From contig DATDYQ010000048.1 in assembly GCA_035288965.1 (NCBI GenBank), positions 1 to 47,666 on the forward strand: DNA of 47,666 nucleotides, in the 5' to 3' direction. Positions 17,672 through 41,787 of the stretch are shown in pieces. Made by a program: the position numbers and the translations under genes. Positions within the stretch are counted from its first letter, which is position 1. The number at the start of each line of letters is the position of its first letter. Source of the DNA: Candidatus Nanoarchaeia archaeon. GTDB lineage: Archaea > Nanobdellota > Nanobdellia > SCGC-AAA011-G17 > JAGVZF01. The notes under the pieces are model-generated. The model was not told the DNA's origin. It saw only the letters and a program-made list of their open reading frames with translations, and did no database searches.

Positions 17672-17857
17672 ATGGAAGATTATTATCAGGTGCTGTTAGA
17701 TTATGTTAAGCCAGATGATGATAATGTTAGAAAACATTCTCTCCTTTTAGATAATCCAATAACTAAAGAAACTAGAATTCCTGATTTAGAGCAGTTAGTA
17801 ATAGATAAAGAAACTAAATCTTTGTTTCCAAAAAAAAATGAAAAGAAGATTTCTTAA
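17672..17857 (+). CDS. small ORF (61 aa); possibly the frameshifted N-terminus of the downstream transglutaminase-like protein
   Basis: It sits at the canonical distance from a promoter motif. It runs through an A9 homopolymer (17830-17838) that also contains the ATG of the 805-aa ORF in another frame. Confidence 0.3.
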   Translation: MEDYYQVLLDYVKPDDDNVRKHSLLLDNPITKETRIPDLEQLVIDKETKSLFPKKNEKKIS

Positions 17858-20255
17858 TGCTTTTGAGATGTATTTAACACGTTTTCCATTTTACAGTCAA
17901 GAGTTAATACATACTGAAATGGAATTGTCTAAAAAAGAATTTATAAACTTTACAAATAAAATCGATAGGGAAGATAGTACAAGAGCGTTGCTTAACTTTT
18001 GTGGTTATGATGTGGAAGGATTGGATTCAGCTAGAGATATATTTGAATTTGAACTTAAAAAATGGCAAGATAATAAAGATTATTATGTTCCTGTAAGAGA
18101 TTTCTTTGGGCCTTTTATTCCAGAGAATATTATTAATCTAGATGATCCTTATTCAGAAGAATTAATGAATCCGTTAAGACATAGCAGAGATTTTAGTCGT
18201 TATTTAATTTCAATTGCTGCTCTGCCATTTTCTTTAATGGCTCTTTTGCCTGGAGCCTTGTTATCTAAATTTTTTAATAATAATGATACGTCAGAACCTT
18301 TAGATAAAAGAGAAACTGACTTTAATACTAGGGATAAAAGTGATAGTTCTAGCTTTTTTGATAATCTTAAATATAAACTAGCTGATTGGTTAGAATGGTT
18401 TAAAGATATGAATTTAGTTGCTACATATAATAATGATTCAGATTTATTTTTTGTAGAACATTTGATATCAGATTTTCATTCTTCTAATGATAGAATAAAA
18501 GATTTATATAGAAATGGAGTGGCACACAAGGCTTCTAGTGTTTTAACTTCGTCAACAGATATTGAAGATGATGGTTTAGAGCTGGAATTTATTAATGGAA
18601 GTGCTCCCATAGACAAATCAAATATACCACTTCCGATGTTTTACTCTTTATTTGAAACTAGAGATAATGTTGCTAAGATGTACAGATGTAATTGGAATTT
18701 AGATGATACAATAAATAGTCAACTTAGTGCAAATCTTAGACTACCTGAAAAATTCATAAATAGAATTGATGAACTAGTTAAAGGAGAAAAATCAATTGAT
18801 AAAATAAAAGATGAAGTTAAAGAGATGTTTATTTATAAAAAGCCTAAAAAATATAAGGGATTAAGCAGATTTGAATCGGCTGCAGTTTCTATGAATGGTG
18901 TTTGTCAGGATGTTAATTTTTTTCTTTGGCATATTTTAAGGAAAAAAGGAATTCCTAGCTATCTTGCTGTGGGCTTGCAGGGAAAAAATGGAGGAATTAC
19001 CAGAGATTCTGGACATGCAAAAGTTATAGCTTATGACAAAGATAAAAAAGAATGGGGGGAATATGATTCAACTCCAAGAAAAGAAGATGTTGAAATATAT
19101 GAAATGAAAAGAGGATCAAAACAACCAAGCATAGATATTGCTTTCTTGAGAAAAGGTTTGGGTTATTTAAGTTATCCTATCTATATGGGATTAAGTTTTG
19201 GAATTGGAGCTATGGTAACTGGAATAAGATTTACCAAACAAAAAACATTAGAAGGTATGATTATGGCTGAAAAGAGGATTTGTAAAAATGTCTTAGATGA
19301 TTTAGAAGAACATCTTAATAGATTTGATGATAATCTAAATAATGTTGATAAAAATCAAATGTTGTTATTTGAAGAGAAAGAAAAAATCAAAGATGAAACT
19401 ATAGAAAATTCCAGAGATATCATGAATATGTCCAATATTCCGATAATTACTAATGATTCTGAAACAAATCATGAAATTGGAAAGATAGAAAAACTGTTTA
19501 ATCCTTTTAAAATTCTTTATCAGATTGATGAACTAAAATATGTTGTTGATACTCTCCCAGAATATGTTAAAAGGTATCATTATTTTGTTATGGCTGAAAA
19601 TGTTTTTAATGATGTTTTAATAACTAAAGGAGAATTATTTCCATTTACACCAAAAAGACCTGATGAATGGAAAAATGTTATGTTAAATTTATTTAATACC
19701 TTTGCCGAAATTAAAGAGCCTCCACATCCTTTAGAAACAAGACAGCCACGAAGATATTATTATAAAGCTAAAAGGGGAATGTCTGTTAAAATAGATGATG
19801 AAATAACAACTTGGGTAAAAAAACCAAGATTCATTAAAGATTTACATTCTGATGAAAAAAATGTTTTTATAGATGATAGCCATAACAATAATCTGGAAAC
19901 TGTGAAGAACATCTATGAAGGAATGACTGATTATAATGAATGGTATATGGTGACTCATGAAAACGTGGATATGAAACCAGATGTCAAACATTACACATAT
20001 TCTCCTCAAATATTATCTTTTGATAAAATGTGGGCTGTTTCTTCTGAAGAATATTGGACATTATTTGGAAATATAATAAAAAAACATATAAAAAATAGTG
20101 AATCTGTTTTTAGATATATGTGGGAAGATTTAGTTAAAATGCATAATGAGTATAGGAAAGGTAATGGTATGTATTCTTTGACAATCAATTATAACAATGG
20201 CAATATGTTTACAGAAACAGATGAAAAATATGTTGAATTAGAAGATCCATGGTAA
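17838..20255 (+). CDS. membrane protein with transglutaminase-like Cys-His-Asp core
   Basis: The core GVCQDVNFFLWHILRKKGIPSYLAVG...SGHAKVIAY...WGEYDSTP matches the transglutaminase-like cysteine protease pattern. TM segments flank it: YLISIAALPFSLMALLPGALL and YPIYMGLSFGIGAMVTGI. Confidence 0.65.
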   Translation: MKRRFLNAFEMYLTRFPFYSQELIHTEMELSKKEFINFTNKIDREDSTRALLNFCGYDVEGLDSARDIFEFELKKWQDNKDYYVPVRDFFGPFIPENIINLDDPYSEELMNPLRHSRDFSRYLISIAALPFSLMALLPGALLSKFFNNNDTSEPLDKRETDFNTRDKSDSSSFFDNLKYKLADWLEWFKDMNLVATYNNDSDLFFVEHLISDFHSSNDRIKDLYRNGVAHKASSVLTSSTDIEDDGLELEFINGSAPIDKSNIPLPMFYSLFETRDNVAKMYRCNWNLDDTINSQLSANLRLPEKFINRIDELVKGEKSIDKIKDEVKEMFIYKKPKKYKGLSRFESAAVSMNGVCQDVNFFLWHILRKKGIPSYLAVGLQGKNGGITRDSGHAKVIAYDKDKKEWGEYDSTPRKEDVEIYEMKRGSKQPSIDIAFLRKGLGYLSYPIYMGLSFGIGAMVTGIRFTKQKTLEGMIMAEKRICKNVLDDLEEHLNRFDDNLNNVDKNQMLLFEEKEKIKDETIENSRDIMNMSNIPIITNDSETNHEIGKIEKLFNPFKILYQIDELKYVVDTLPEYVKRYHYFVMAENVFNDVLITKGELFPFTPKRPDEWKNVMLNLFNTFAEIKEPPHPLETRQPRRYYYKAKRGMSVKIDDEITTWVKKPRFIKDLHSDEKNVFIDDSHNNNLETVKNIYEGMTDYNEWYMVTHENVDMKPDVKHYTYSPQILSFDKMWAVSSEEYWTLFGNIIKKHIKNSESVFRYMWEDLVKMHNEYRKGNGMYSLTINYNNGNMFTETDEKYVELEDPW

Positions 20256-20377: not shown

Positions 20378-21895
20378 ATGAGAAACAAAGAATACGAAGA
20401 AATGCAAACAACTATTCTTTTATTAGAAGAGGAAGTAAATCGACTACGAGAGCCTCCTTACAAAGCAGGAACTGTTTTACAACTTGGAAAAAAAACAGTA
20501 CGACTTATTGTAGATGGAGGTAGTTTTATCGAAGTTGCTATGCCAAGTGATAAAGGTTTAAGTGCAGAAATTAGGAAGAAATTAAGATCAGGAGCAAGAG
20601 TTATTTTGAATGGAGCTGGAGCTATTGTTGATTATTCTGAATTTGATAAGACCATATGTGGAGAAATTACCACTGTTGATGAAATTAACTGTGATAGATT
20701 GAGAGTTAATGTAAGAGGAGAACCAAGAATGGTTTTAAACACTCTAAAAGATGTTAAGGTAGGAGATGAGGTTCAATTGGATTTATCTGGATTACTTGTT
20801 ACTGAAAGATTTGATAGAAAAAAAACACGTTATGTTTTGGAAAAAATTCCGCAAGCACCTTGGAATAATATTGGCGGATTGGAAAAAGCAATTTGTGATA
20901 TTAGGGGAGAAATTGAAGAACCTTTTTTACACAGAGATATCTTTAATAGATATGGACAAGGTCCTGCTAAGGGAATTTTGCTTTACGGACCACCCGGATG
21001 TGGAAAAACAATGATTGCAAAATCTATTGCATATAATCTTGCAAAATTAACAGGCAATGGAGCAGGACATTTTATAAGTGTGAAAGGTCCTGAGATCCTG
21101 GATAAATTTGTAGGAAATTCTGAAGCAAATATCAGAAGAATTTATGGTGCTGCACGTGATGAAGCTAAAGAAAGTAATGTACCAACAGTTGTTTTCATTG
21201 ATGAGGCAGAATCAATCATGAAAGCAAGAGGTAGTGGAATCTCGACTGATGTTTATGACTCTATTGTTCCGCAATTTCTTGCAGAAATGAGTGGTTTAAA
21301 TGGGGGGGATTACGAAGTAGTCACTGTATTGGCCACTAACAGAGAGGACATAATTGATCCTGCAATTTTAAGAGATGGTAGGGTGGATATAAAAATTCGA
21401 ATTCCTAGACCAGACAGAAAGGGAGCTGAACAAATTTTTAAAATATATTTAAAAGATAGACCTATGCGTGGGTTAATGGCTTCTACCAAAGGTCTTGTTG
21501 AAGAAATTGTTGAAAGAATCTACGATGACGAAACAGCAGCATATAATATAATTTCTCCGACTGGAATTATTGGGAGTTTTGGTTATCAAAATTTAATAAG
21601 TGGTGCAATGATAAAAGGAATTATTGATAGGGGATGTAAATCTGCAATTCGAAGAGAAATTGAAGGCGGAAAGAAAGGGTTAGAAAAAGAAGATTTGTAT
21701 CGTGCTGTTAAAGAAAAATTTGATGAGAATTCCGAATTCACGCAAGCACTTGTAAGGGACGATTGGGAAGTTGTTTTTGGTGGAGAAGGAAAGCAATTAT
21801 ACGAAATGTATCGTCATGGACATTTACATTTACAAAAGGCTGATGAACAAAGTGGGAATGATGTTAAACAAAATGAAGGGAGGCAAAGTAAATGA
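20378..21895 (+). CDS. AAA+ unfoldase with N-terminal coiled coil and two OB-like domains; resembles Mpa/ARC more than PAN; no HbYX C-terminus
   Basis: The coiled coil EEMQTTILLLEEEVNRLREPP is followed by OB-like segments. Walker A is GPPGCGKT and Walker B is VVFIDEAES, with NREDIIDPAILRDGRVD downstream. The post-AAA segment is SGAMIKGIIDRGCKSAI...DDWEVV. The protein ends ...NEGRQSK. Confidence 0.85.
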   Translation: MRNKEYEEMQTTILLLEEEVNRLREPPYKAGTVLQLGKKTVRLIVDGGSFIEVAMPSDKGLSAEIRKKLRSGARVILNGAGAIVDYSEFDKTICGEITTVDEINCDRLRVNVRGEPRMVLNTLKDVKVGDEVQLDLSGLLVTERFDRKKTRYVLEKIPQAPWNNIGGLEKAICDIRGEIEEPFLHRDIFNRYGQGPAKGILLYGPPGCGKTMIAKSIAYNLAKLTGNGAGHFISVKGPEILDKFVGNSEANIRRIYGAARDEAKESNVPTVVFIDEAESIMKARGSGISTDVYDSIVPQFLAEMSGLNGGDYEVVTVLATNREDIIDPAILRDGRVDIKIRIPRPDRKGAEQIFKIYLKDRPMRGLMASTKGLVEEIVERIYDDETAAYNIISPTGIIGSFGYQNLISGAMIKGIIDRGCKSAIRREIEGGKKGLEKEDLYRAVKEKFDENSEFTQALVRDDWEVVFGGEGKQLYEMYRHGHLHLQKADEQSGNDVKQNEGRQSK

Positions 21896-22353
21896 GAATG
21901 TTTGGAAGAAAAGAAACTGCTGCTGTTAAACCATTTGCGAAGCAAGAAGTTTTAGAGAATGAGGTTGTAAAACCGATTATTGCAACTGCAAGACCTGGCT
22001 TAACTGATGAGTCTTCTGCTTTAATGAGAAGACTTCCTTCAAATTATGCAGGAAGAACTGTAAGAGATGTACTAAGCTATATGGTTGATTTCAATGAAAG
22101 CAGATCTGCAGAAGCAACAAGTCGATATGGTAAAAAAGTTAAAGATAGTGAAGCTGCTATAATAACAAGCTTGAAGAATGAACTTGGAGCTGCAGGAAGT
22201 GTTGTTGTTATTAATGGTAAAAATGCAAAATTAACTGACAGAATAGACCAATATTTAGTTGATAGAACTAAAAATGTCAGCGGAAGAAATATTCAATATC
22301 AAGAACTTGAGATAGAAGTTTCTGCAGTTCAGCAAGGCGGTTACAGGTTTTAA
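21892..22353 (+). CDS. ubiquitin-like beta-grasp (ThiS/MoaD/SAMP-like) protein with a ~50-aa N-terminal extension, ending GG-YRF
   Basis: The C-terminal part ...GSVVVINGKNAKLTDRIDQYLVD...ELEIEVSAVQQGG|YRF follows the ThiS/MoaD-type layout. The GG is at aa 149-150 (nt 22336-22341), followed by three residues. ATGA overlap with the ATPase gene, and GGGAGG upstream. Confidence 0.6.
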   Translation: MRMFGRKETAAVKPFAKQEVLENEVVKPIIATARPGLTDESSALMRRLPSNYAGRTVRDVLSYMVDFNESRSAEATSRYGKKVKDSEAAIITSLKNELGAAGSVVVINGKNAKLTDRIDQYLVDRTKNVSGRNIQYQELEIEVSAVQQGGYRF

Positions 22354-22396
22354 TTTCTTGCAGATGTAGAAGAATCTTAATCGGTTTGAGAAAGAA

Positions 22397-23398
22397 ATGG
22401 CAGACTTAGATATACTTTTAACTGGGGAAGAGCCAGAAGAAAAATTAGAAGGAGAAAAAAATTTTGGATTAAATGAATTATATATTTCTAAATATGCTTA
22501 TGAAAAAGCCTTTAGATATGCAGAACTTGTTATGCGAGAGAGGAGCGATAGTGTTGAAATCGGGGGATTTTTAACTACACAAAAAGGTGCCAATGACAGG
22601 GTTGCAAGAGATGCATTCCTTGCTCGTGATCAAGAAGTTAGTCGGGGATTTTATAAATTAAGTGCAGAAGATGTTTTGAAGGCTAAGAAAGAGATTGAAG
22701 ATAAAGAACAAAAAATTATTGGGTGGTGGCATAGTCATGGAAGATTTGATGCTTATCATTCTGAAACTGATAGCAAAAATCAGATGGTTTTGCTTAATCA
22801 AATTTCCACTTCTAATTATATTCCCTTTCCTAAAGAAAGAGATTATGATAGTTTGCAAAGCAGAATAGAAGGTAATAAAATAATCTTTTGGGATCCTGAA
22901 GATCCTATCAAGAAATTTGAACTTGAGTTAAAAGAAGAAAATCCTGAATTGGTAGCAAAGAGATTGAAGATTTTAGAGGATAAAAAAATTGGATTTGCTT
23001 ATAGTTTTGTTGTTAATAATCATAGATGGTTGAGAAAAAGAGTTCCTTATTTCGAAATTGCAACAAGAGATTTATGTGTAGACTGTATTAATGCAAATGA
23101 TGTGAGTGTGCCTGTTGGATACAAGATTTTTGATGAAGGGGAATATAAAATTGATGATGAACAATTGATTGCAGAAATTAATGAGCGGGTTCATGTTTTT
23201 GGTGAAGGTCATAAAAATAAAAAATATCTATTGCCTTCAACTTTTGAAGAGCAACGGATGGCTGGAACGCTTTCTAAACCAGATTTCGGATCGATATCTA
23301 AGGTAAGAAAACGTAAATACTACAGAACTGATGAAGGAAGTTTTAAAGGTAAAAAGAAAGAAGAGCAAAAAGACGATTCTAAAGAGGTAGGAAGATGA
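22397..23398 (+). CDS. JAB/MPN+ (JAMM) metalloprotease with ~200-aa C-terminal extension
   Basis: An exact JAMM motif, HSHGRFDAYHSETD (H-x-H-x7-S-x2-D), lies at nt 22730-22771. The upstream Glu is in SVEIGGFL. Confidence 0.85.
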   Translation: MADLDILLTGEEPEEKLEGEKNFGLNELYISKYAYEKAFRYAELVMRERSDSVEIGGFLTTQKGANDRVARDAFLARDQEVSRGFYKLSAEDVLKAKKEIEDKEQKIIGWWHSHGRFDAYHSETDSKNQMVLLNQISTSNYIPFPKERDYDSLQSRIEGNKIIFWDPEDPIKKFELELKEENPELVAKRLKILEDKKIGFAYSFVVNNHRWLRKRVPYFEIATRDLCVDCINANDVSVPVGYKIFDEGEYKIDDEQLIAEINERVHVFGEGHKNKKYLLPSTFEEQRMAGTLSKPDFGSISKVRKRKYYRTDEGSFKGKKKEEQKDDSKEVGR

Positions 23399-24078
23399 AA
23401 TATAAAATAGGACAGAAAGTTTTTATAAAAAGAGCAAATGGGGAGTTGGACCATAAACCAAAAGGAAGTTATTATTATGGGGGTAGTTTCAGGGATCTTC
23501 CGTTAGGATCAAAGGGAACTATTAATGAAATTGTCAATGAAAATATGATTGGTCTAAGAGTGGAAAAACAAAATTATGGTTATAGGTGGTATGTGCATCC
23601 CAGTGAGTTACCTACACCTGAAGAAATAAATTTACATGAAAGAAAGGAACAGGAAAAGATTAATTCTCAGTTAAAAAGTATTCTGTTAGCTGATGAACCA
23701 ATTGTTAAAATGTCGATAACAAGACAAAAATCCTTTGATCCGAAGTTTAATGCAAGAGAAGAGTTTGTTGTTTGGATAAGGGAAGAATTTCCGGAATTAA
23801 AAAAATATTCAAAGAACAAAAGAAAATATTCTGATTTAATAAATAGAAAAAAGGAAGTTATGGAAGGAGCAAAGAAAGCTTATGAACACGCACTTAAAAC
23901 TACTGACAGTTGTGTTAGGGTTGATTTTATTGAAAGCTTTAAGGAGCTTAATAAGCGTATGGGAAATTTTGCTAATGGGCTAGATGAGTTCGTTACCTTT
24001 ATCGAGTATGTTTCTGCTAATCTGATAAACAAAAAAGATAGACATTATGGAACAACTTTAGCAAGAAGAATAAAATGA
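23395..24078 (+). CDS. unrecognised family, paralogue 1 (SH3/KOW-like N-domain plus helical module with H-x7-C)
   Basis: 227 aa. It shares LLADEP..K....SFDPKFNAREEFVVWIREEFPEL...EHALKTTDSC...IEYVSANL...RHYGT with ORFs 25490 and 26121. ATGA overlaps at both ends. Confidence 0.6.
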   Translation: MKYKIGQKVFIKRANGELDHKPKGSYYYGGSFRDLPLGSKGTINEIVNENMIGLRVEKQNYGYRWYVHPSELPTPEEINLHERKEQEKINSQLKSILLADEPIVKMSITRQKSFDPKFNAREEFVVWIREEFPELKKYSKNKRKYSDLINRKKEVMEGAKKAYEHALKTTDSCVRVDFIESFKELNKRMGNFANGLDEFVTFIEYVSANLINKKDRHYGTTLARRIK

Positions 24079-25493
24079 CGAATGACAAAAATATACGATA
24101 TGACAGACAGCAAAGAATTCAAAACTGGCAGCAAGAAAGATTAGCAAATGCAAAGATAGCAATTATTGGATCTGGACAATTAGCCCAATTTACAGCAGCT
24201 TCACTTGTCGCTCTTGGTGTAGGAAATGTAGAAATATATTGTAATGAAAAAGTTAATGGAAAGGAATTCTTAACTTTTGATAGTAATGGAGATGATAAGT
24301 CTAGCTTACTCGAAAAGAAGTTGCATGAAATGAATCCTGATGCTAATGTTAGAAGTTTTAAAATGGAAAGTGATGATAATATACTTTCTTTAGTTGATAA
24401 TCCTGATATAATTTTAGAGTTGACAAATTCATCTGAATTAAAAGAAAAAATTATGGAATATGCAAATGCACATAATGTAAAAATAATTTCTGCATCAACC
24501 GGAAAAACAGGAGGAGAATTATATTTTGTTAAACCGGGAGATGATTATTCGAGTGCAAAACTTACAAAATACGATGGAGAAAAACAGAGAACATTCACTA
24601 GCGAAATTTTTGGTGGTATGATTACAGAAGAAGTTAGAAAGATTTTGATGCCTCTTAAAGAAGGAGAAGATGCTGTTAAGAATTTGGCTTATGATGCGAC
24701 TGCTGAAAAGAGATTCAGTAAAGAAGGAGATTTTGATGCACAGCCTTTTGAAGATTTATCACAAAAAAGAATTTTAATTATCGGAGCAGGAGCTCTTGGG
24801 AATTTTGTTGCTTTGGGAGCTACGCTTGAGGGAATCGGAAAAATTGATATTTTAGATTTTGATGAAGTTGAACCTCATAATCTAAACAGACAAATTATGT
24901 TTTACGATGCTGTTGGAAAGAAAAAATCTTTAGCACTAGCAGAAAAGATCAAACAAATTAACCCTGACATCGAAGTTAAAGGATTGGTTGAAAAATTAGA
25001 TGAGAATACAACTTATTTTTTAAACAATAACCCAGACTTAATTTTGGATTGTGTTGATAACTTTGCAACTAGAGCTATAACAAATTACTTTGCTGTTCAT
25101 TATGGAATTCCGTTAGTAAGTGGTGGAACAAATTCAAATTCTGGGCAAGTTGTTGTTTATGAGCCTGGACAGAGTGCCTGTTTAGAATGTAAACTTGGTG
25201 TTGAACAAGCATTAGGGGTAGCTTTACAAGGAAGCAAGTGCACAGACGCACCTAATCCAAGTGTAATCATGACAAATGAAATTATTGGAGGAATGATGGT
25301 TGGAGAAGCTTTGAAAGTTTTAGATAAAGGATATGGAACTTCAGTTTCAAGAATTTTGAAATATGATTCAACAGCTCCTGTTAGGGGTGGTTTAATCGGA
25401 GCTAGTAATGCATGTGAATGTTCAAGGGGAGAAATTAAGGAATGGCTGCAAGGGGTTAAAGAGATGTTTTCTTTAGCTAAGGATGAAAAATGA
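24075..25493 (+). CDS. E1-like activating enzyme with tandem ThiF/MoeB-type domains (degenerate N-terminal, active C-terminal)
   Basis: Domain 1 is RYDRQ...KIAIIGSGQLAQ...GVGNVEIYCNEKV and lacks the DxD...NLNRQ motif. Domain 2 is RILIIGAGALGN...IDILDFDEVEPHNLNRQ...LDCVDNFATR...CLEC...GSKCTDAP...CEC. Confidence 0.85.
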   Translation: MTNDKNIRYDRQQRIQNWQQERLANAKIAIIGSGQLAQFTAASLVALGVGNVEIYCNEKVNGKEFLTFDSNGDDKSSLLEKKLHEMNPDANVRSFKMESDDNILSLVDNPDIILELTNSSELKEKIMEYANAHNVKIISASTGKTGGELYFVKPGDDYSSAKLTKYDGEKQRTFTSEIFGGMITEEVRKILMPLKEGEDAVKNLAYDATAEKRFSKEGDFDAQPFEDLSQKRILIIGAGALGNFVALGATLEGIGKIDILDFDEVEPHNLNRQIMFYDAVGKKKSLALAEKIKQINPDIEVKGLVEKLDENTTYFLNNNPDLILDCVDNFATRAITNYFAVHYGIPLVSGGTNSNSGQVVVYEPGQSACLECKLGVEQALGVALQGSKCTDAPNPSVIMTNEIIGGMMVGEALKVLDKGYGTSVSRILKYDSTAPVRGGLIGASNACECSRGEIKEWLQGVKEMFSLAKDEK

Positions 25494-26116
25494 CTTTTGA
25501 TATTGGAGAAAAAGTGAAGATTGTAAAAACAGAGGGATTTAATAGAGGATGTTATAGAAATGGACTTTCTTTATTCCAAATTCATCTAGGAACTAAAGGA
25601 GTGATTACAAATATACAAAATAATAAAGATGCTTTTATTTATGTTAGAATAGGGGGAGAGGATTATTCTTTTCTACCAACTGAATTAGCTTATTGTGAAG
25701 AAGGAAAAAGTAAGCATGAAAAGAAAAAATTGGAGAGTTTGCTTATTGCAGAAGAGCCTGTTGATAAAATTAAAAAAGAAAAATCCTTTGATCCGAAGTT
25801 TAATGCAAGAGAAGAGTTTGTTGTTTGGGTAAGGGAAGAATTTCCGGAATTAATGTATCAAAAGGGACATTATGAAATACCTTCTAAAAGAAGAAGAGAA
25901 GTTTATGAAGCTGCAATAGCTGCATGTCGGCATGGTATTGAAACAACTGGAGCTTGTGTGCAAAGGACATTTCAAAATAATTTTAGTAATTTAATGACGG
26001 ATGGTTGCTCAGATCTTGAAGTAAGAATATATAGCATAGTATCTTTAATAGAATGTGTTTCTGCTAATCTGGGAAACGAAAATAGACATTATGGAACAAT
26101 TTTAGCAAGAAAATAA
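25490..26116 (+). CDS. unrecognised family, paralogue 2 (SH3/KOW-like N-domain plus helical module with H-x7-C)
   Basis: 208 aa. Motifs: LLIAEEPVDKIKKEKSFDPKFNAREEFVVWVREEFPEL...RHGIETTGAC...IECVSANLGNENRHYGT. ATGA overlap with the E1 gene. Confidence 0.6.
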   Translation: MTFDIGEKVKIVKTEGFNRGCYRNGLSLFQIHLGTKGVITNIQNNKDAFIYVRIGGEDYSFLPTELAYCEEGKSKHEKKKLESLLIAEEPVDKIKKEKSFDPKFNAREEFVVWVREEFPELMYQKGHYEIPSKRRREVYEAAIAACRHGIETTGACVQRTFQNNFSNLMTDGCSDLEVRIYSIVSLIECVSANLGNENRHYGTILARK

Positions 26117-26120
26117 TAAA

Positions 26121-26858
26121 ATGACTAATGATAAACTAGATGAATTATTAAACGGGAAAGAGCCAGAAGAAAGATTAGAAGTGAATGTTAATCGGGAATT
26201 CAAGCCTAAAATTAATGTGAGAGAAGAATTTGTATTGTGGATCCGTGAACAGTTTCCGGAACTTGGAGAATATATAAAAAAAGGAGGCATATATAAAAGT
26301 TTAGAAACTCGTGAGGAGGAGATTTATCAAGCTGCTCTGGGAGCAGTAAATCATGGTTTAACCTCTACTGAAGATTGTGCAAGCACACGTTTACATTCTG
26401 GATGGGTTGAATTTGAAAAAGGATTTGGGGTAAAGGGAAATCCTAGAAGAAGAGCAAAGAGTTTAGGAAGTTTTGTTAAGGCATTAGAAGACCTCTCAAT
26501 TAGCTTAGGTGGAGACAAACATTATACGAGGGCCGGAAAATTTTTAAATGGTAAACCTTATAGTGATTATTTGTATAGAAATCTGCGAGCTTTTGTTTAT
26601 ATGGTGGGAGAGGAAAATGGCAAGGATACAAAATACCTAGTTTTTGATGTAAAACAAAAATTTGAAGGCAATAATATCCCTGTTTTGATAGGTGAACTTC
26701 GTGGATTATCAAAATGGGATTTTGAAAGTTTAGGGAGAATTGCCTCTAAATTTCAGGGAACTGAGATAGATTTTATTGAAAAGGTTGATAAACTTGTTCC
26801 ACAAAAAGGATCATATGACTATTCACATGGATATTATGGCAGTGTTAAGTATAAGTGA
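26121..26858 (+). CDS. unrecognised family, paralogue 3 (helical module first, then a distinct ~110-aa C-terminal domain)
   Basis: 245 aa. Motifs: LLNGKEPEERLEVNVNREFKPKINVREEFVLWIREQFPEL...NHGLTSTEDC...LEDLSISLGGDKHYT. It starts MTNDK, as the E1 does. Confidence 0.6.
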   Translation: MTNDKLDELLNGKEPEERLEVNVNREFKPKINVREEFVLWIREQFPELGEYIKKGGIYKSLETREEEIYQAALGAVNHGLTSTEDCASTRLHSGWVEFEKGFGVKGNPRRRAKSLGSFVKALEDLSISLGGDKHYTRAGKFLNGKPYSDYLYRNLRAFVYMVGEENGKDTKYLVFDVKQKFEGNNIPVLIGELRGLSKWDFESLGRIASKFQGTEIDFIEKVDKLVPQKGSYDYSHGYYGSVKYK

Positions 26859-27381: not shown

Positions 27382-27455
27382 GGGCCGGTAGCTCAGCTTG
27401 GTAGAGCACCTGACTTTTAATCAGGTGGTCGTGGGTTCAAATCCCATCCGGCTCA
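27382..27455 (+). tRNA. tRNA-Lys (anticodon TTT)
   Basis: Acceptor GGGCCGG/CCGGCTC, D arm GCTC-AGCTTGGTA-GAGC, anticodon stem CCTGA/TCAGG with loop CTTTTAA, T arm GTGGG-TTCAAAT-CCCAT. Confidence 0.9.
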
Positions 27456-27463
27456 TACACAAA

Positions 27464-27709
27464 ATGAAGAAAGAACTAAACATAGTAGGTCATGGCTTGG
27501 TCCCGAAGCATTTTAAATTAAGTGAAGAAGAGAAAAAAGAACTTCTGGAAAAATATAATATTGGATTAACACAATTGCCAAAAATCTATGATAATGATCC
27601 TATGATCAAAATAATGGGAGATGTTAAAATAGGTGATATTGTTAAAATAGAGAGAGATAGTCCAACAGCTGGAAAAGGTATTTTTTATAGAGTGGTGGTG
27701 CATGGTTAA
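27464..27709 (+). CDS. rpoH: RNA polymerase subunit H (Rpb5 homologue)
   Basis: Motifs: HGLVPKHFKLSEEEKKELLEKYNI...QLPKI...DP...GDIVKIERDSPTAG...YRVVV. The ORF-track start at 27398 lies inside tRNA-Lys. I use ATG 27464. Confidence 0.85.
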   Translation: MKKELNIVGHGLVPKHFKLSEEEKKELLEKYNIGLTQLPKIYDNDPMIKIMGDVKIGDIVKIERDSPTAGKGIFYRVVVHG

Positions 27710-39882: not shown

Positions 39883-41787
39883 ATGTGGGAATTTAATAGA
39901 GATAATCACGAAAGACTTGTTGAAAGTGTGTCTAAAATGAGGAATTCTGATATTGTTGAAAATCTGGAATATGAAGAGCCAAAATACACTTCTGCAAAAA
40001 CTGGGGAAATGTTAAATCCAGAGGTTATTGATCTAACTAAAAAGATATATACAAATTTAGACTTGCCTGTCGCTGGATTTAATCAAGGTGGTTTAATATC
40101 TGGAATGGCAATTTGTAAGCAAAGCAGAGCGGAAGATGATGCAAGAGTGATTACGGCTAGAATGATTCAGGGCAATAAAAAATTGAGGAATGCCTTGGAT
40201 AAATTACAGATTCCGGATTATATGTCTGAAATAGGCGGTCCATTTTTTGAAGCTGTTTGGGATGAGTATGGTGATGATTCTGTTGCAAGAAATGTAGATT
40301 TTTCAGCAGTATTTCATGGAGTTTCTATGTTAGAAGCTATGACTTTGTTGCATAATCGGGTTTTGTTTGGAATAGAAAAATCTACAAGGTATGTTGATTA
40401 TAGTGAGAGAAGAAGAGATGGGAATTTTAACTATATTGTTGATCCTTTGATTAAAATGGTAGGATTAGAAAATGATTTTAGAAGAACAACTGATAGATTT
40501 TTTAAGATATATTCTAGAGTTATCAATGATAAAGGGGATAAATATAAAGAATTATTGGGATGGATTGGCAATAATCTACCTTTTGAAAATTTCAAAGAAA
40601 AAGCCCAGGAATCTTTAAAAAGATTGGGCCAAGAATATGCAACAGATGAAGAATTAAAAGAAGGATATAGCAGAACAATAAGCGCTGCTCTTAAAGATCA
40701 AGTAAGACATTTGCTCCCTCTTTCTGCGAGAACAAGTCTTGGCATTATCTTTAATGCTGAAGCTATGCGTCATTTAGTATATCAACAGCAATCTAGATTT
40801 TTTGCTGAAGGAATTATGATAAATGAATTATTTAAAAGAGAGATGAAAAAATTAGTCGGACCTTTATTAGACCATACAGAATATGATGATAAAAGATCTA
40901 TTGAAAGTCGTGATTTCCTTTTTGAAACGAGAAAACCATTAATAGGATATAAAATAAGAGATATTGATTTTAAAGAAGCTGATAGCATAATAAAAAATGA
41001 AAAACTTAAATTAGATGTTTATAGATATGGTGATTTTGTAAAAGTAAATGATTCTAATTTAAATCTAGAAATTATGTTTAATTTAGATGGAAGTTTAGAT
41101 GACCTTATTTCTGCAATATTACGAGAAAAAGTTTCTAATATAACGATTACTCAATCTAATAATGAAGTTAAACATATGTCTAGAGAACAAAAAATAAAAT
41201 TGTTGAATAATTATGCGGGAATTGGACATGATGATTTAAGAAAAAATAGAAGATATAAACCCGGGAGGGCTTTTGAAGTTGTAAGTTTGGATTTAACTAT
41301 GTTAATGCCAATAGCTGAAATAAGGGATATTCGAAGACATACTGTTCCATCTTATCTTGATCCTTTAAATTTTAATCCAGAACTTGGATCTTATATATCT
41401 CCTGGATTAAGAGCAATAGGATTAGAGGGGGATATTCAAAAAGCTAATAAAGAATCAAGCAGTATGTGGTATAGGATTAATGAAAAATGTGGTCCTTATG
41501 CTGCCAGCACTTCATTACCAATGTCGACATTTGGTTCGATGAATACTAAGATTAATTTAAGAGAGGATTTTCATATAAATGAATTAAGAACTCAGACAGG
41601 GGCTGCCCCTGTTTATTTGAGATTATGTCAGATGAAATATGCTGGTTTAAGTGTTTTAATGCCTGAAGTGGCAAGATTGATGAAGTTTGTAAATCAAGAA
41701 ACTGAAATTGACTTTGGAAGATCCATACAGGAAATGCGTTCTATCAAAAAAAGAAAGGAATCTCAAGAGAAAGTAAATATTGCTTAG
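39883..41787 (+). CDS. large ThyX-like (FAD-dependent thymidylate synthase-like) protein, probable fused pseudo-dimer
   Basis: LLHNRVLFGIEKSTRYVDY resembles a degenerate RHRxxSxxxxSxRY ThyX signature. INLREDFHINELRTQTGAAPVYLRLCQM resembles the ThyX C-terminal NLRE..H...LR...AQ.EIR motif. At 634 aa it is over twice the length I recall for a ThyX monomer. Confidence 0.5.
   Translation: MWEFNRDNHERLVESVSKMRNSDIVENLEYEEPKYTSAKTGEMLNPEVIDLTKKIYTNLDLPVAGFNQGGLISGMAICKQSRAEDDARVITARMIQGNKKLRNALDKLQIPDYMSEIGGPFFEAVWDEYGDDSVARNVDFSAVFHGVSMLEAMTLLHNRVLFGIEKSTRYVDYSERRRDGNFNYIVDPLIKMVGLENDFRRTTDRFFKIYSRVINDKGDKYKELLGWIGNNLPFENFKEKAQESLKRLGQEYATDEELKEGYSRTISAALKDQVRHLLPLSARTSLGIIFNAEAMRHLVYQQQSRFFAEGIMINELFKREMKKLVGPLLDHTEYDDKRSIESRDFLFETRKPLIGYKIRDIDFKEADSIIKNEKLKLDVYRYGDFVKVNDSNLNLEIMFNLDGSLDDLISAILREKVSNITITQSNNEVKHMSREQKIKLLNNYAGIGHDDLRKNRRYKPGRAFEVVSLDLTMLMPIAEIRDIRRHTVPSYLDPLNFNPELGSYISPGLRAIGLEGDIQKANKESSSMWYRINEKCGPYAASTSLPMSTFGSMNTKINLREDFHINELRTQTGAAPVYLRLCQMKYAGLSVLMPEVARLMKFVNQETEIDFGRSIQEMRSIKKRKESQEKVNIA

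What the first reader, a model, noticed from the sequence alone, without database searches (positions are those of the whole stretch)
24075..25493. Single-chain E1 with a degenerate plus an active adenylation domain (eukaryote-like pseudo-dimer)
Both halves begin with a Rossmann GxGxxG (KIAIIGSGQLAQ; RILIIGAGALGN) and end with a related helix (SEIFGGMITEEVRKIL versus NEIIGGMMVGEALKVL), which shows an internal duplication. Only the second half keeps the full catalytic set. It has DFDEVEPHNLNRQ, DCVDNFATR, a CLEC...CEC Zn-type cluster, and a crossover-loop Cys (GSKCTDAP, C389). The first half has YCNEKVNGKEFL in place of the nucleotide-binding motif. ThiF, MoeB and UbaA act as homodimers. A fused inactive/active pair is the hallmark of eukaryotic Uba1-type E1s and, to my recollection, of some recently described bacterial defence E1s. 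Finding it in a small archaeal genome is notable.
Basis: partly seen in the sequence, partly recalled or inferred. Interest (0 to 1): 0.75.

Follow-up and report, generated by a model that had tools for sequence, protein, structure and literature searches.

The report
Archaeal two-domain (inactive+active) E1 enzyme
This gene encodes a small ubiquitin-activating-type (E1) enzyme built from a dead copy and a live copy of the same domain fused in one chain. That layout was thought typical of eukaryotes. Here it sits in a compact operon with a ubiquitin-like protein, a trimming protease and an unfolding ATPase, in a tiny DPANN archaeon and in many relatives.

Summary
ORF 24075-25493 (+, 472 aa) holds two ThiF/E1 adenylation domains (27% identical, E 1e-19).

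**The two halves.** The C-terminal half keeps every catalytic residue, a Zn-type Cys cluster and an invariant crossover-loop Cys389. The N-terminal half has lost the NLxRQ arginine, the Mg-binding Asp (now Asn118) and the third P-loop Gly. It keeps an invariant N-terminal RYxRQ arginine finger.

**Structure.** AlphaFold gives a confident model (pLDDT 93, pTM 0.94). Its 50 best PDB matches are all eukaryotic single-chain E1s.

**Family.** At least 134 clusters at 50% identity have the same tandem layout. They occur in DPANN archaea and, unexpectedly, in Desulfobacterota, Chloroflexota and Acidobacteriota.

**Differences from known E1s.** It lacks the Cys domain and ubiquitin-fold domain of canonical E1s, and the about 80-aa CYS insertion of bacterial BilD.

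**Operon.** The neighbours are an AAA+ unfoldase, a 153-aa protein ending QQGG+YRF, a JAMM peptidase and three His/Cys paralogs. I read this as a Bil-like ubiquitin-like conjugation system coupled to an unfoldase.

**Verdict.** A new variant of a known kind. No biochemistry was tested, and the E2 step is inferred.

The parts
24075..25493 (+). E1-like enzyme, 472 aa, with tandem ThiF-family adenylation domains (IAD + AAD)
   Evidence: ORF. Pfam ThiF 234.8 bits with 2 stretches. AF2 pLDDT 93, pTM 0.94. Foldseek top hits are UBA7, Uba1 and UBA6.
24075..24710 (+). Inactive adenylation domain (IAD), residues 1-212
   Evidence: Pfam ThiF E 1.1e-19 on its own. The P-loop is GSGQLA. The NLxRQ motif is absent. 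The Mg Asp is replaced by N118, as in 59/64 family members.
24096..24110 (+). RYDRQ motif of the IAD. R11 is the predicted arginine finger reaching into the AAD ATP site.
   Evidence: R8, R11 and Q12 are kept in 63/64 and Y9 in 61/64. The motif aligns with RYSRQ of ThiF and so with RYNRQ (R14) of MoeB. BilD uses IAD Arg9 in the same way. The contact itself is inferred.
24726..25490 (+). Active adenylation domain (AAD), residues 218-472
   Evidence: Best PDB sequence match is MoeB 1jw9, 9.2e-22. All ATP/Mg residues are invariant in 64 homologs.
24783..24800 (+). AAD P-loop GAGALG (G237, G239, G242)
   Evidence: 64/64 at each Gly.
24855..24893 (+). DFDEVEPHNLNRQ. D261 is the ribose-binding Asp (equivalent to MoeB D62). 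R272 binds phosphate (equivalent to MoeB R73).
   Evidence: Alignment to MoeB. D261, D263, N269, R272 and Q273 are 64/64.
25047..25061 (+). DCVDN. D328 is the Mg-binding Asp (equivalent to MoeB D130).
   Evidence: Alignment. D328 is 64/64.
25179..25190 (+). CLEC, the first half of the predicted structural Zn site (C369, C372)
   Evidence: 63/64 and 60/64. Same position as the CxxC of MoeB. Metal binding was not tested.
25239..25241 (+). Cys389, the predicted catalytic (thioester-forming) cysteine on a short crossover loop
   Evidence: 64/64. It aligns with the crossover-loop Cys of MoeB. It lies only 12-19 residues after the CxxC in all 64 homologs, so there is no inserted Cys domain.
25413..25421 (+). 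CEC, the second half of the predicted Zn site (C447, C449)
   Evidence: 63/64 and 60/64.
21892..22353 (+). Candidate ubiquitin-like modifier precursor, 153 aa. It ends ...EVSAVQQGG (22330-22341) plus a YRF tail (22342-22350).
   Evidence: In a family of 26 aligned sequences, Q148, G149 and G150 are invariant and are followed by variable 2-10 aa tails. AF2 pLDDT 80. Foldseek hits are weak (E >= 0.07); most of them, including the best-covered targets, are beta-grasp proteins or domains: Atg8, SUMO2, MoaD, Mth1743. The family HMM hits a gene next to the tandem E1 in the window and in 10 further loci: L002-L008, L009 (same contig as L004), L011, L015.
22397..23398 (+). JAMM/MPN+ metallopeptidase, 333 aa. 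The motif HSHGRFDAYHSETD is at 22730-22771. Predicted to trim the Ubl tail and/or deconjugate.
   Evidence: Pfam Prok-JAB 34.1 bits. NCBIfam desampylase-like hit. Motif. A JAMM gene lies next to the E1 in nearly all loci.
20378..21895 (+). AAA+ unfoldase of Mpa/ARC architecture (coiled coil, OB, AAA). Walker A 20987-21010; pore loop KFVG 21104-21115.
   Evidence: TIGR03689 pup_AAA 378 bits over 8-477. PDB Mpa/ARC chains match as one stretch over 68/125-474. Its stop overlaps the Ubl start (ATGA).
23395..24078 (+). Paralog 1, 227 aa: SH3-like N-domain plus a helical domain with invariant His165/Cys173 (23887-23913). Candidate Ubl acceptor or carrier; function unknown.
   Evidence: Family alignment A3. 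No Pfam or PDB hit. ATGA overlaps with both JAMM and E1.
25490..26116 (+). Paralog 2, 208 aa, same architecture (His/Cys at 25931-25957)
26121..26858 (+). Paralog 3, 245 aa. No SH3-like domain. Same His/Cys domain (26352-26378) plus a C-terminal extension.

Best explanation
The gene encodes a minimal single-chain E1. An inactive adenylation domain (IAD, residues 1-212) and an active one (AAD, 218-472) pack as an intramolecular pseudo-dimer, taking the place of the MoeB/ThiF homodimer.

Proposed cycle:
1. The neighbouring JAMM peptidase removes the YRF tail of the 153-aa beta-grasp protein and exposes Gly150.
2. The AAD binds ATP-Mg through G237/G239/G242, D261, R272, K284 and D328. The site is completed by Arg11 of the IAD's N-terminal RYDRQ helix. 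The AAD adenylates Gly150.
3. Cys389 on the short crossover loop attacks the adenylate to give an E1~Ubl thioester.
4. The Ubl is passed to a Cys-bearing partner or directly to target lysines. In most relatives that partner is a protein with a YLFPxCRVAV...HPF...C.G domain. In this window it is probably one of three paralogs with an invariant His-x7-Cys.
5. The co-transcribed AAA+ unfoldase engages the tagged protein or the Ubl's disordered N-terminal extension.

What is shown: the domain duplication, the asymmetric loss and retention of catalytic residues, the predicted Uba1-like fold, and the conserved gene module.

What is inferred: every chemical step, the Arg-finger contact, the identity of the acceptor, and the role of the ATPase.
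For: - **Tandem ThiF domains**.
- **Family-wide asymmetry** of ATP-site residues and the Arg finger.
- **Confident AF2 model.** The best 50 PDB matches are all single-chain eukaryotic E1s at TMq (TM-score normalised to the query) 0.61-0.69.
- **Tandem layout across the family.** 134 of the 150 best 50%-identity representatives match with both halves.
- **Invariant Cys389.** It aligns with the MoeB crossover Cys. The C-terminal 170 aa align contiguously only with MoeB and UBA5.
- **Ubl partner.** Its family has an invariant QQGG followed by variable tails. The beta-grasp fold hits are weak; most of them are beta-grasp proteins or domains.
- **Intact JAMM motif**.
- **Operon packing.** Four ATGA start/stop overlaps.
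- **Recurrent module.** Ubl - Cys-protein - JAMM - E1 plus an AAA+ recurs in archaeal and bacterial loci. It has the same gene order as BilABCD: Ubl-E2-DUB-E1.
Against: - No biochemical data exist for any member.
- No recognisable E2 is in the window.
- The candidate E2-like families have no significant Pfam, PADLOC or PDB match. hhalign of A6 against UBE2D2 gives only 1.6% probability.
- The Ubl fold match is weak (best E 0.066).
- I could not inspect model coordinates, so the Arg11-to-AAD contact is not verified.
- The IAD keeps G32, often the ribose Asp (47/64) and a Lys/Arg at position 75 (51/64). Residual nucleotide binding in some members is therefore not excluded.
Confidence: 0.75

Rival explanations
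1. It is a sulfur-carrier activating enzyme of the MoeB/ThiF/UbaA type. It would adenylate a MoaD/ThiS-like protein for thiocarboxylate formation (molybdopterin, thiamine or tRNA thiolation), and the N-half would be only a scaffold.
For: The best sequence matches of both halves are MoeB and ThiF. NCBIfam lists ThiF/MoeB models first. Public annotations say 'molybdopterin-synthase adenylyltransferase'. The Ubl model also resembles MoaD and Mth1743.
Against: All ThiF/MoeB/UbaA NCBIfam scores are below their curated cut-offs, for example 190.7 against 275 and 109.6 against 450. The enzyme has no rhodanese domain. No MoaE, ThiG, NcsA or cysteine-desulfurase gene lies in any of the loci read. The partner protein is made as a GG+tail precursor next to a JAMM peptidase and an AAA+ unfoldase, a context typical of conjugation systems. 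Dual use, as for Haloferax SAMPs, is not excluded.
Confidence: 0.1
2. The E1 works without any E2, as in archaeal SAMPylation. The E1 thioester or acyl-adenylate would be resolved directly by target lysines. The three His/Cys paralogs would be substrates, adaptors or regulators rather than carriers.
For: No UBC-like protein is detectable in the window. The His/Cys paralog family is narrow, with 12 database relatives, and is absent from most loci. UbaA acting without an E2 is established knowledge for Haloferax.
Against: Every other locus examined, 17 in all (7 and 10 further, all except L003, L014 and L022), carries a protein with an invariant Cys preceded by HPF in a YLFPxCRVAV context like the E2 motif YPFKPPKVAF..HPN..C, in the BilB position of the operon. 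In the window lineage the same SH3-like N-domain is joined to a different domain that again has an invariant His and Cys. This looks like replacement of a catalytic module.
Confidence: 0.25
3. The N-terminal half is not dead. It would be a nucleotide-binding regulatory site or a second, divergent active site.
For: G32 is invariant, GSG is kept in 41/64, the ribose Asp in 47/64 and Lys/Arg75 in 51/64. R213 and F214 ahead of the AAD are conserved.
Against: The phosphate-binding NLxRQ motif is absent. The Mg Asp is Asn in 59/64 and the third Gly is Ala in 56/64. In this protein the ribose Asp is Cys. The N-half has no Cys or Zn motif. The equivalent of the trans arginine, position 216, is not conserved.
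Confidence: 0.1

Closest known systems
BilD, the E1 of bacterial BilABCD (Type I/II Bil) antiviral ubiquitination-like operons
   Same: A prokaryotic single-chain N-terminal IAD plus C-terminal AAD pseudo-dimer. An IAD arginine completes the AAD site (Arg9 in BilD, Arg11 here). [quoted passage not shown] The operon contains a Ubl made as a precursor, a JAMM peptidase and, in relatives, a Cys protein in the same gene order Ubl-X-DUB-E1.
   Different: BilD carries an inserted mobile alpha-helical CYS domain of about 80 aa that holds its catalytic Cys417. Here the Cys sits 12-19 residues after the CxxC on the crossover loop itself. No BilD-named chain appeared in the hits displayed by any PDB sequence or fold search (searches show 60 of 80 and 60 of 69 hits; searches are complete; one search shows the best 50). 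No Bil model appeared among the 25 of 33 PADLOC families shown for the E1. This system adds an AAA+ unfoldase, and its Ubl has a helical insert and an N-terminal extension. It occurs in DPANN archaea. I could not obtain a BilD sequence for a direct comparison.
Canonical eukaryotic E1s (Uba1, UBA6, UBA7; NAE1-UBA3, SAE1-SAE2)
   Same: An asymmetric IAD/AAD adenylation core with one active site and an arginine from the IAD. They are the best structural matches of the model (8oif UBA7 E 6e-24, TMq 0.69; Uba1 0.65).
   Different: Less than half the size. It has no FCCH/SCCH catalytic Cys domain and no UFD, so E2 recruitment must differ. Sequence identity is only 13-17%. The N-half profile scores higher against MoeB (88 bits) than against eukaryotic E1s (about 50 bits). 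Common descent of the duplication is therefore not shown.
Non-canonical homodimeric E1-like enzymes (MoeB, ThiF, UBA5, Uba4, archaeal UbaA)
   Same: The AAD resembles them most in sequence (MoeB 9e-22). Like them, it carries the catalytic Cys on the crossover loop, plus the CxxC...CxxC-type Zn site.
   Different: Those enzymes are symmetric homodimers with two active sites. Here one partner is fused and inactivated. NCBIfam cut-offs for MoeB, ThiF and UbaA are not reached.
Caldiarchaeum subterraneum / TACK-Asgard archaeal ubiquitin operon (Ub, E1, E2, RING E3, Rpn11)
   Same: An archaeal operon with a Ubl precursor, an E1 and a JAMM peptidase (PMC5654768 and PMC3082918, listed; their content is from my own knowledge).
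   Different: From my own knowledge, not tested here: that E1 is a single-domain protein with recognisable UBC E2 and RING E3 partners. Here no UBC or RING is detectable, an AAA+ ATPase is part of the operon, and the E1 is a fused pseudo-dimer.

Membership tests
ThiF/MoeB/E1 adenylation superfamily (Pfam PF00899) | Rossmann-like adenylation domain matching the family model above the gathering score | tested here: met
   Whole protein 234.8 bits with 2 stretches. The N-half alone scores 70.9 bits against a cut-off of 28.1.
Pseudo-dimeric (IAD+AAD) E1s, i.e. the canonical E1 core and BilD | Two adenylation domains in one functional unit, of which only one keeps the ATP/Mg site | tested here: met
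   AAD residues are invariant. The IAD lacks the NLxRQ Arg, the Mg Asp (Asn118) and the third Gly, across 64 homologs.
Pseudo-dimeric (IAD+AAD) E1s | The domains pack like the MoeB dimer or the Uba1 IAD/AAD pair | tested here: met
   Prediction only. pTM 0.94. Foldseek TMq 0.61-0.69 to UBA7, Uba1 and UBA6 over about 600 alignment columns.
Pseudo-dimeric (IAD+AAD) E1s | An arginine from the IAD N-terminus completes the AAD active site | tested here: inconclusive
   The RYxRQ motif is kept in 63/64 in the IAD, and the equivalent Arg is lost before the AAD. I could not inspect the contact in the model.
Canonical eukaryotic E1 (Uba1 type) | Catalytic Cys in a separate inserted Cys domain (FCCH/SCCH) | tested here: not met
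   Only 16 residues separate C372 from C389 (12-19 across the family). The total length is 472 aa.
Canonical eukaryotic E1 (Uba1 type) | C-terminal ubiquitin-fold domain that recruits the E2 | tested here: not met
   After the CxC the model has only one helix, 454-471.
BilD (Bil operons) | Alpha-helical CYS domain of about 80 aa inserted in the AAD crossover loop | tested here: not met
   Feature as described. It is absent here.
BilD (Bil operons) | Operon with a Ubl, an E2 (BilB), a JAB DUB and the E1, in the order Ubl-E2-DUB-E1 | tested here: inconclusive
   Ubl, JAMM and E1 are present in the window. The slot between the Ubl and JAMM is empty here. In relatives it is filled by a Cys protein whose E2 nature is unproven.
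BilD (Bil operons) | Sequence membership: grouping with BilD in a tree or a profile | not testable with these tools
   No BilD sequence was obtainable. No BilD chain or Bil model appeared in the displayed PDB or PADLOC lists, some of which were truncated.
MoeB / ThiF / SAMP-activating UbaA (NCBIfam equivalogs) | Score above the curated cut-off | tested here: not met
   TIGR02356 190.7 against 275.25. NF004281 166.6 against 266. NF047750 UbaA 109.6 against 450.
Ubiquitin-like modifier (partner of the E1) | Beta-grasp fold with a conserved C-terminal Gly-Gly that is exposed by processing | tested here: inconclusive
   QQGG is invariant and followed by variable tails. The AF2 core has pLDDT >= 90. 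The fold matches are weak (E >= 0.066; TM-score normalised to the target up to 0.67); most of them are beta-grasp proteins or domains. Processing was not tested.
E2 (UBC fold) partner | UBC fold with HPN...Cys | tested here: inconclusive
   The relatives' A6 family has an invariant Cys and near-invariant HPF, and the motif YLFPxCRVAV resembles E2 YPFKPPKVAF. hhalign probability is only 1.6% and there is no PDB or Pfam hit. The family is absent from the window.

The most novel reading that the evidence does not exclude
The window carries one version of a previously undescribed, widespread prokaryotic ubiquitin-like conjugation system, found in DPANN archaea, Desulfobacterota, Chloroflexota and Acidobacteriota. 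It would be defined by four components: a minimal IAD-AAD E1 with its catalytic Cys on the crossover loop; a GG-tailed beta-grasp modifier; a JAMM peptidase; and a new Cys-dependent carrier family, obligatorily coupled to an AAA+ unfoldase (Mpa/ARC-like or ClpX-like). This E1 would represent the simplest stage of the asymmetric E1 core, before acquisition of Cys and UFD domains. The system would be a prokaryotic 'tag-and-unfold' pathway analogous to ubiquitin/Cdc48 or Pup/Mpa.
Probability: 0.4. Interest if true: 0.85.

Novelty: new variant of a known kind. Interest (0 to 1): 0.68.

Why it matters
The asymmetric IAD/AAD core was long taken as a eukaryotic invention. BilD showed that it exists in bacteria.

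This family shows a still simpler form: two MoeB-like domains fused, one inactivated, with the catalytic Cys still on the crossover loop. That combines traits of 'canonical' and 'non-canonical' E1s, and it is common in genome-reduced DPANN archaea and in several bacterial phyla.

It offers a small, probably tractable model for asking three questions. What is gained by inactivating one protomer? How does an E1 without a UFD hand its Ubl on? And what is a Ubl tag used for when it is hard-wired to an AAA+ unfoldase in organisms with minimal proteomes?

It also supplies outgroup material for dating the duplication that produced eukaryotic E1s.

Tried and rejected
- **BubCD as a similar tandem protein.** The weak PDB hit to 9ea4 suggested this. 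I rejected it: BubCD is a JAB-E1 fusion that homodimerises and lacks a catalytic Cys.
- **Specific affinity of the N-half for eukaryotic IADs.** The single-sequence search ranked the Uba1 IAD, NAE1 and SAE1 among the hits. A 25-sequence profile did not confirm this: MoeB 88 bits, ThiF 77, Uba4 73, eukaryotic E1s about 50.
- **Recent in-lineage duplication.** The N-half HMM scores the family's own C-halves (median 82, maximum 109 bits) about the same as E. coli MoeB. In NJ trees the N-halves are roughly equidistant from the C-halves and from single-domain outgroups. The origin of the duplication therefore remains open.
- **Sequence searches for the other operon proteins.** I searched the Ubl, the three paralogs and the relatives' HPF..C domain against PDB, Pfam and PADLOC. 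All came back empty.
- **A copy of the HPF..C domain in the window.** tblastn and HMM searches found none.
- **First bootstrap attempts.** One timed out and one failed on the Kimura correction. I redid the analysis with Poisson distances.
- **Literature.** Searches for a DPANN or tandem-ThiF E1, or for an E1/JAB/ClpX operon, found nothing. The library lacks many subscription papers, so this is not proof of novelty.
Full report
**Observation.**

The ORF at 24075-25493 (+) encodes 472 aa.

The two halves are homologous:
- BLASTP of residues 1-214 against 215-472 gives 27% identity, E 1e-19. The alignment runs from the P-loops to the two GG helices.
- Pfam ThiF (PF00899) matches the protein in two stretches. 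It matches the N-half alone at 70.9 bits, E 1.1e-19.
- Profile-profile comparison of the family's N-halves and C-halves gives 99.8% probability.

The organism is archaeal. Directly downstream lie RpoH, a split RpoB''/RpoB' and RpoA'/RpoA''. The closest named homologs are from Nanoarchaeota, Pacearchaeota and Woesearchaeota. G+C is about 30%.

**Which half is active.**

I aligned 64 full-length homologs at 31-72% identity.

C-half:
- Invariant residues are G237, G239, G242, D261, D263, N269, R272, Q273, K284, D328 and C389.
- C369, C372, C447 and C449 are kept in 60-63 of 64.
- Against E. coli MoeB these map to D62, R73, K86 and D130, the crossover-loop Cys and the CxxC pairs.

N-half:
- The P-loop is G-S-G/D-x-L-A. 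The third Gly is Ala in 56/64.
- The NLxRQ segment has no counterpart.
- The Mg Asp is Asn118 in 59/64.
- The ribose Asp is kept in 47/64 but is Cys56 in this protein.
- There is no Cys or Zn motif.

The N-terminal RYxRQ motif is retained in 63/64. Its second Arg corresponds to MoeB R14, which acts in trans in the MoeB dimer (established knowledge). BilD uses IAD Arg9 in the same way. The equivalent segment ahead of the AAD keeps R213 and F214, but position 216 is variable.

This is the asymmetry expected if the N-half serves the C-half's active site and not the reverse.

**Structure.**

AlphaFold2 with the 64-sequence alignment gives mean pLDDT 93 and pTM 0.94. Both halves have the same order of strands and helices.

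Foldseek against the PDB returns eukaryotic single-chain E1s in all 50 best positions: UBA7 8oif at E 6e-24 and TMq 0.69, then Uba1 and UBA6 at about 0.65. Such scores need both domains to superpose in the IAD/AAD arrangement.

Features that are missing:
- There is no inserted Cys domain. Only 12-19 residues separate the CxxC from the catalytic Cys in all 64 sequences.
- After the CxC there is a single helix, so there is no UFD.
- The last 170 residues align contiguously only with MoeB and UBA5, the E1s whose Cys sits on the crossover loop.

The enzyme therefore combines the asymmetric core of canonical E1s with the catalytic loop of non-canonical ones.

**Family and distribution.**

An exhaustive HMMER search with the C-half found 183 representatives (50% identity clusters) with E <= 1e-30. 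Of the best 150, 134 match with both halves and are 400-640 aa long.

A scan of GTDB species representatives found tandem members in two groups:
- Archaea: Nanoarchaeota, Woesearchaeota, Pacearchaeota and Aenigmatarchaeota, plus a Methanosarcinales MAG.
- Bacteria: Desulfobacterales and 'delta proteobacteria', a Thermoflexales, a Proteobacteria MAG and an Acidobacteriota MAG.

I built NJ trees of the separated halves with 20 single-domain MoeB/ThiF-like outgroups (212 columns):
- The N-halves form one split in 293/300 bootstraps and the C-halves in 217/300.
- The sub-clades are congruent. The deltaproteobacterial group is recovered 300/300 in both halves.
- The fusion therefore arose once, before the family diversified and crossed the domain boundary.
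- The N-halves evolve faster (mean distance 1.23 against 0.86).

Whether this event is the same as the one behind the eukaryotic or BilD IADs could not be tested, because I could not obtain those sequences. The N-half profile is no closer to eukaryotic IADs than to MoeB.

**Context.**

The E1 is the fifth gene of a seven-gene, same-strand operon (20378-26858) with four ATGA start/stop overlaps. Members:

1. An AAA+ ATPase. Its whole architecture matches actinobacterial Mpa/ARC: TIGR03689 at 378 bits over residues 8-477, and PDB Mpa chains as a single stretch. It has a KFVG pore loop.
2. A 153-aa protein.
   - Its family has an invariant ...SAVQQGG followed by 2-10 variable residues.
   - Its AF2 core is confident. 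The fold hits are weak; most of them are beta-grasp proteins or domains: Atg8, SUMO2, Nip45 SLD2, MoaD, Mth1743.
3. A JAMM peptidase with an intact HxHx7Sx2D motif.
4. Three paralogs of 227, 208 and 245 aa that flank the E1. They have an invariant His-x7-Cys in a helical domain. Two of them also have an SH3-like N-domain.

The Ubl family HMM hits a gene beside the E1 in the window and in 10 further loci (L002-L008, L009, L011, L015), two of which, L004 and L009, are the same contig. Four deltaproteobacterial loci (L016, L017, L019, L024) carry a 123-126 aa '...AIKPQEGG+tail' protein read by eye.

In relatives the order is usually Ubl - X - JAMM - E1, the same as BilABCD (Ubl-E2-DUB-E1). X is a protein whose C-terminal domain has an invariant Cys and a near-invariant HPF (YLFPxCRVAV...HPFL...IC.G). 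This pattern recalls the E2 signature YPFKPPKVAF..HPN..ICL, but it has no statistical support. The window and its nearest relative L003 lack X and have the His/Cys paralogs instead.

An AAA+ gene is nearly always present but is not orthologous across loci. It is Mpa/ARC-like in the window, L003 and L004. It is ClpX-like in L002, L006, L007 and the bacterial loci.

**Mechanism and rivals.**

The best reading (confidence about 0.75) is a conjugation E1. JAMM exposes Gly150. The AAD, completed by IAD Arg11, adenylates it. Cys389 takes it as a thioester. It then goes to a Cys carrier or to targets, and the unfoldase acts on the product. All chemistry is inferred.

A purely sulfur-carrier role is unlikely:
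- NCBIfam cut-offs for MoeB, ThiF and UbaA are missed.
- No sulfur-pathway gene is nearby.
- The context is precursor, peptidase and unfoldase.

An E2-independent, SAMP-like mode cannot be excluded for this particular window. Residual nucleotide binding by the N-half in some members is also possible.

**Comparison and novelty.**

BilD is the closest known analogue. In the literature I could search, it is the only other prokaryotic IAD-AAD E1. This family fails BilD's defining CYS-domain feature and appears as a separate sequence family with an added AAA+ partner.

I found no paper describing it. Database names are only 'ThiF family adenylyltransferase' or 'molybdopterin-synthase adenylyltransferase'.

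I rate the E1 as a new variant of a known kind. The system around it may prove to be a new kind of prokaryotic Ubl pathway.

Noticed in passing
window 20378-21895 (+): The AAA+ ATPase has the full architecture of actinobacterial Mpa/ARC proteasomal ATPases: TIGR03689 at 378 bits, and PDB Mpa chains matched over 68/125-474. It lacks a C-terminal HbYX-type motif (it ends GRQSK). An ARC-type unfoldase in a DPANN archaeon is unusual. In more distant loci a ClpX-like ATPase occupies the same slot.
   Followed up: partly
window 23395-24078, 25490-26116, 26121-26858 (+): Three paralogs of a narrow family with only 12 database relatives. They share an invariant FxPxFNxREEFxxW...H-x7-C...HYGT signature, and two have an SH3-like N-domain. 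They have no Pfam, PDB or PADLOC match. They replace the SH3 + 'HPF..C.G' proteins of related loci.
   Followed up: partly
window 22397-22441 (JAMM N-terminus MADLDILLTGEEPEE); 23671-23700, 25730-25759, 26136-26165 in the paralogs; also the N-termini of JAMM, AAA+ and other proteins in L003-L008: A short acidic motif, L-[DE]-x-[IL]-L-x(3,4)-E-P, recurs in several different proteins of the operon and of related operons. It may be a shared docking peptide for one hub component.
   Followed up: no
L001, L002, L004-L008, L010-L013, L016-L021, L024, L087 (for example L004 5768-7390, L016 10113-11228): An uncharacterised protein family (alignment A6). It has an invariant Cys, a near-invariant HPF and a 'YLFPxCRVAV' strand, and always lies beside the tandem E1 and JAMM, in the BilB (E2) position. 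It has no Pfam, PADLOC or PDB sequence match. It is a candidate divergent E2.
   Followed up: partly
L012, L016-L022, L024, L087: Bacterial genomes (Desulfobacterales, Thermoflexales, Acidobacteriota) carry the same tandem E1. L016, L017, L019 and L024 also have a Ubl (ending ...AIKPQEGG+tail), an A6 protein, a ClpX-like AAA+ and a JAMM. This implies transfer of the module between archaea and bacteria.
   Followed up: partly
window 17838-20255 (+): An 805-aa protein with a transglutaminase-like Cys-protease core (PF01841, 25.9 bits). It lies 123 nt upstream of the operon on the same strand. It is not conserved in the nearest related locus, L003.
   Followed up: no
window 27382-27455 and 27398-27709: tRNA-Lys(UUU) overlaps the mechanically listed TTG start of the RpoH (Rpb5-C) ORF. 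The real RpoH start is probably the downstream Met (MKKELNIV...).
   Followed up: no
protein P0073: A 263-aa fragment 80% identical to this E1 is deposited under 'Candidatus Gottesmanbacteria' (a CPR bacterium). This is probably a binning error for a DPANN contig.
   Followed up: no
window 39883-41787 (+): A 634-aa ORF whose only Pfam hit is ThyX (Thy1, residues 115-299). That is unusually long for a flavin-dependent thymidylate synthase.
   Followed up: no
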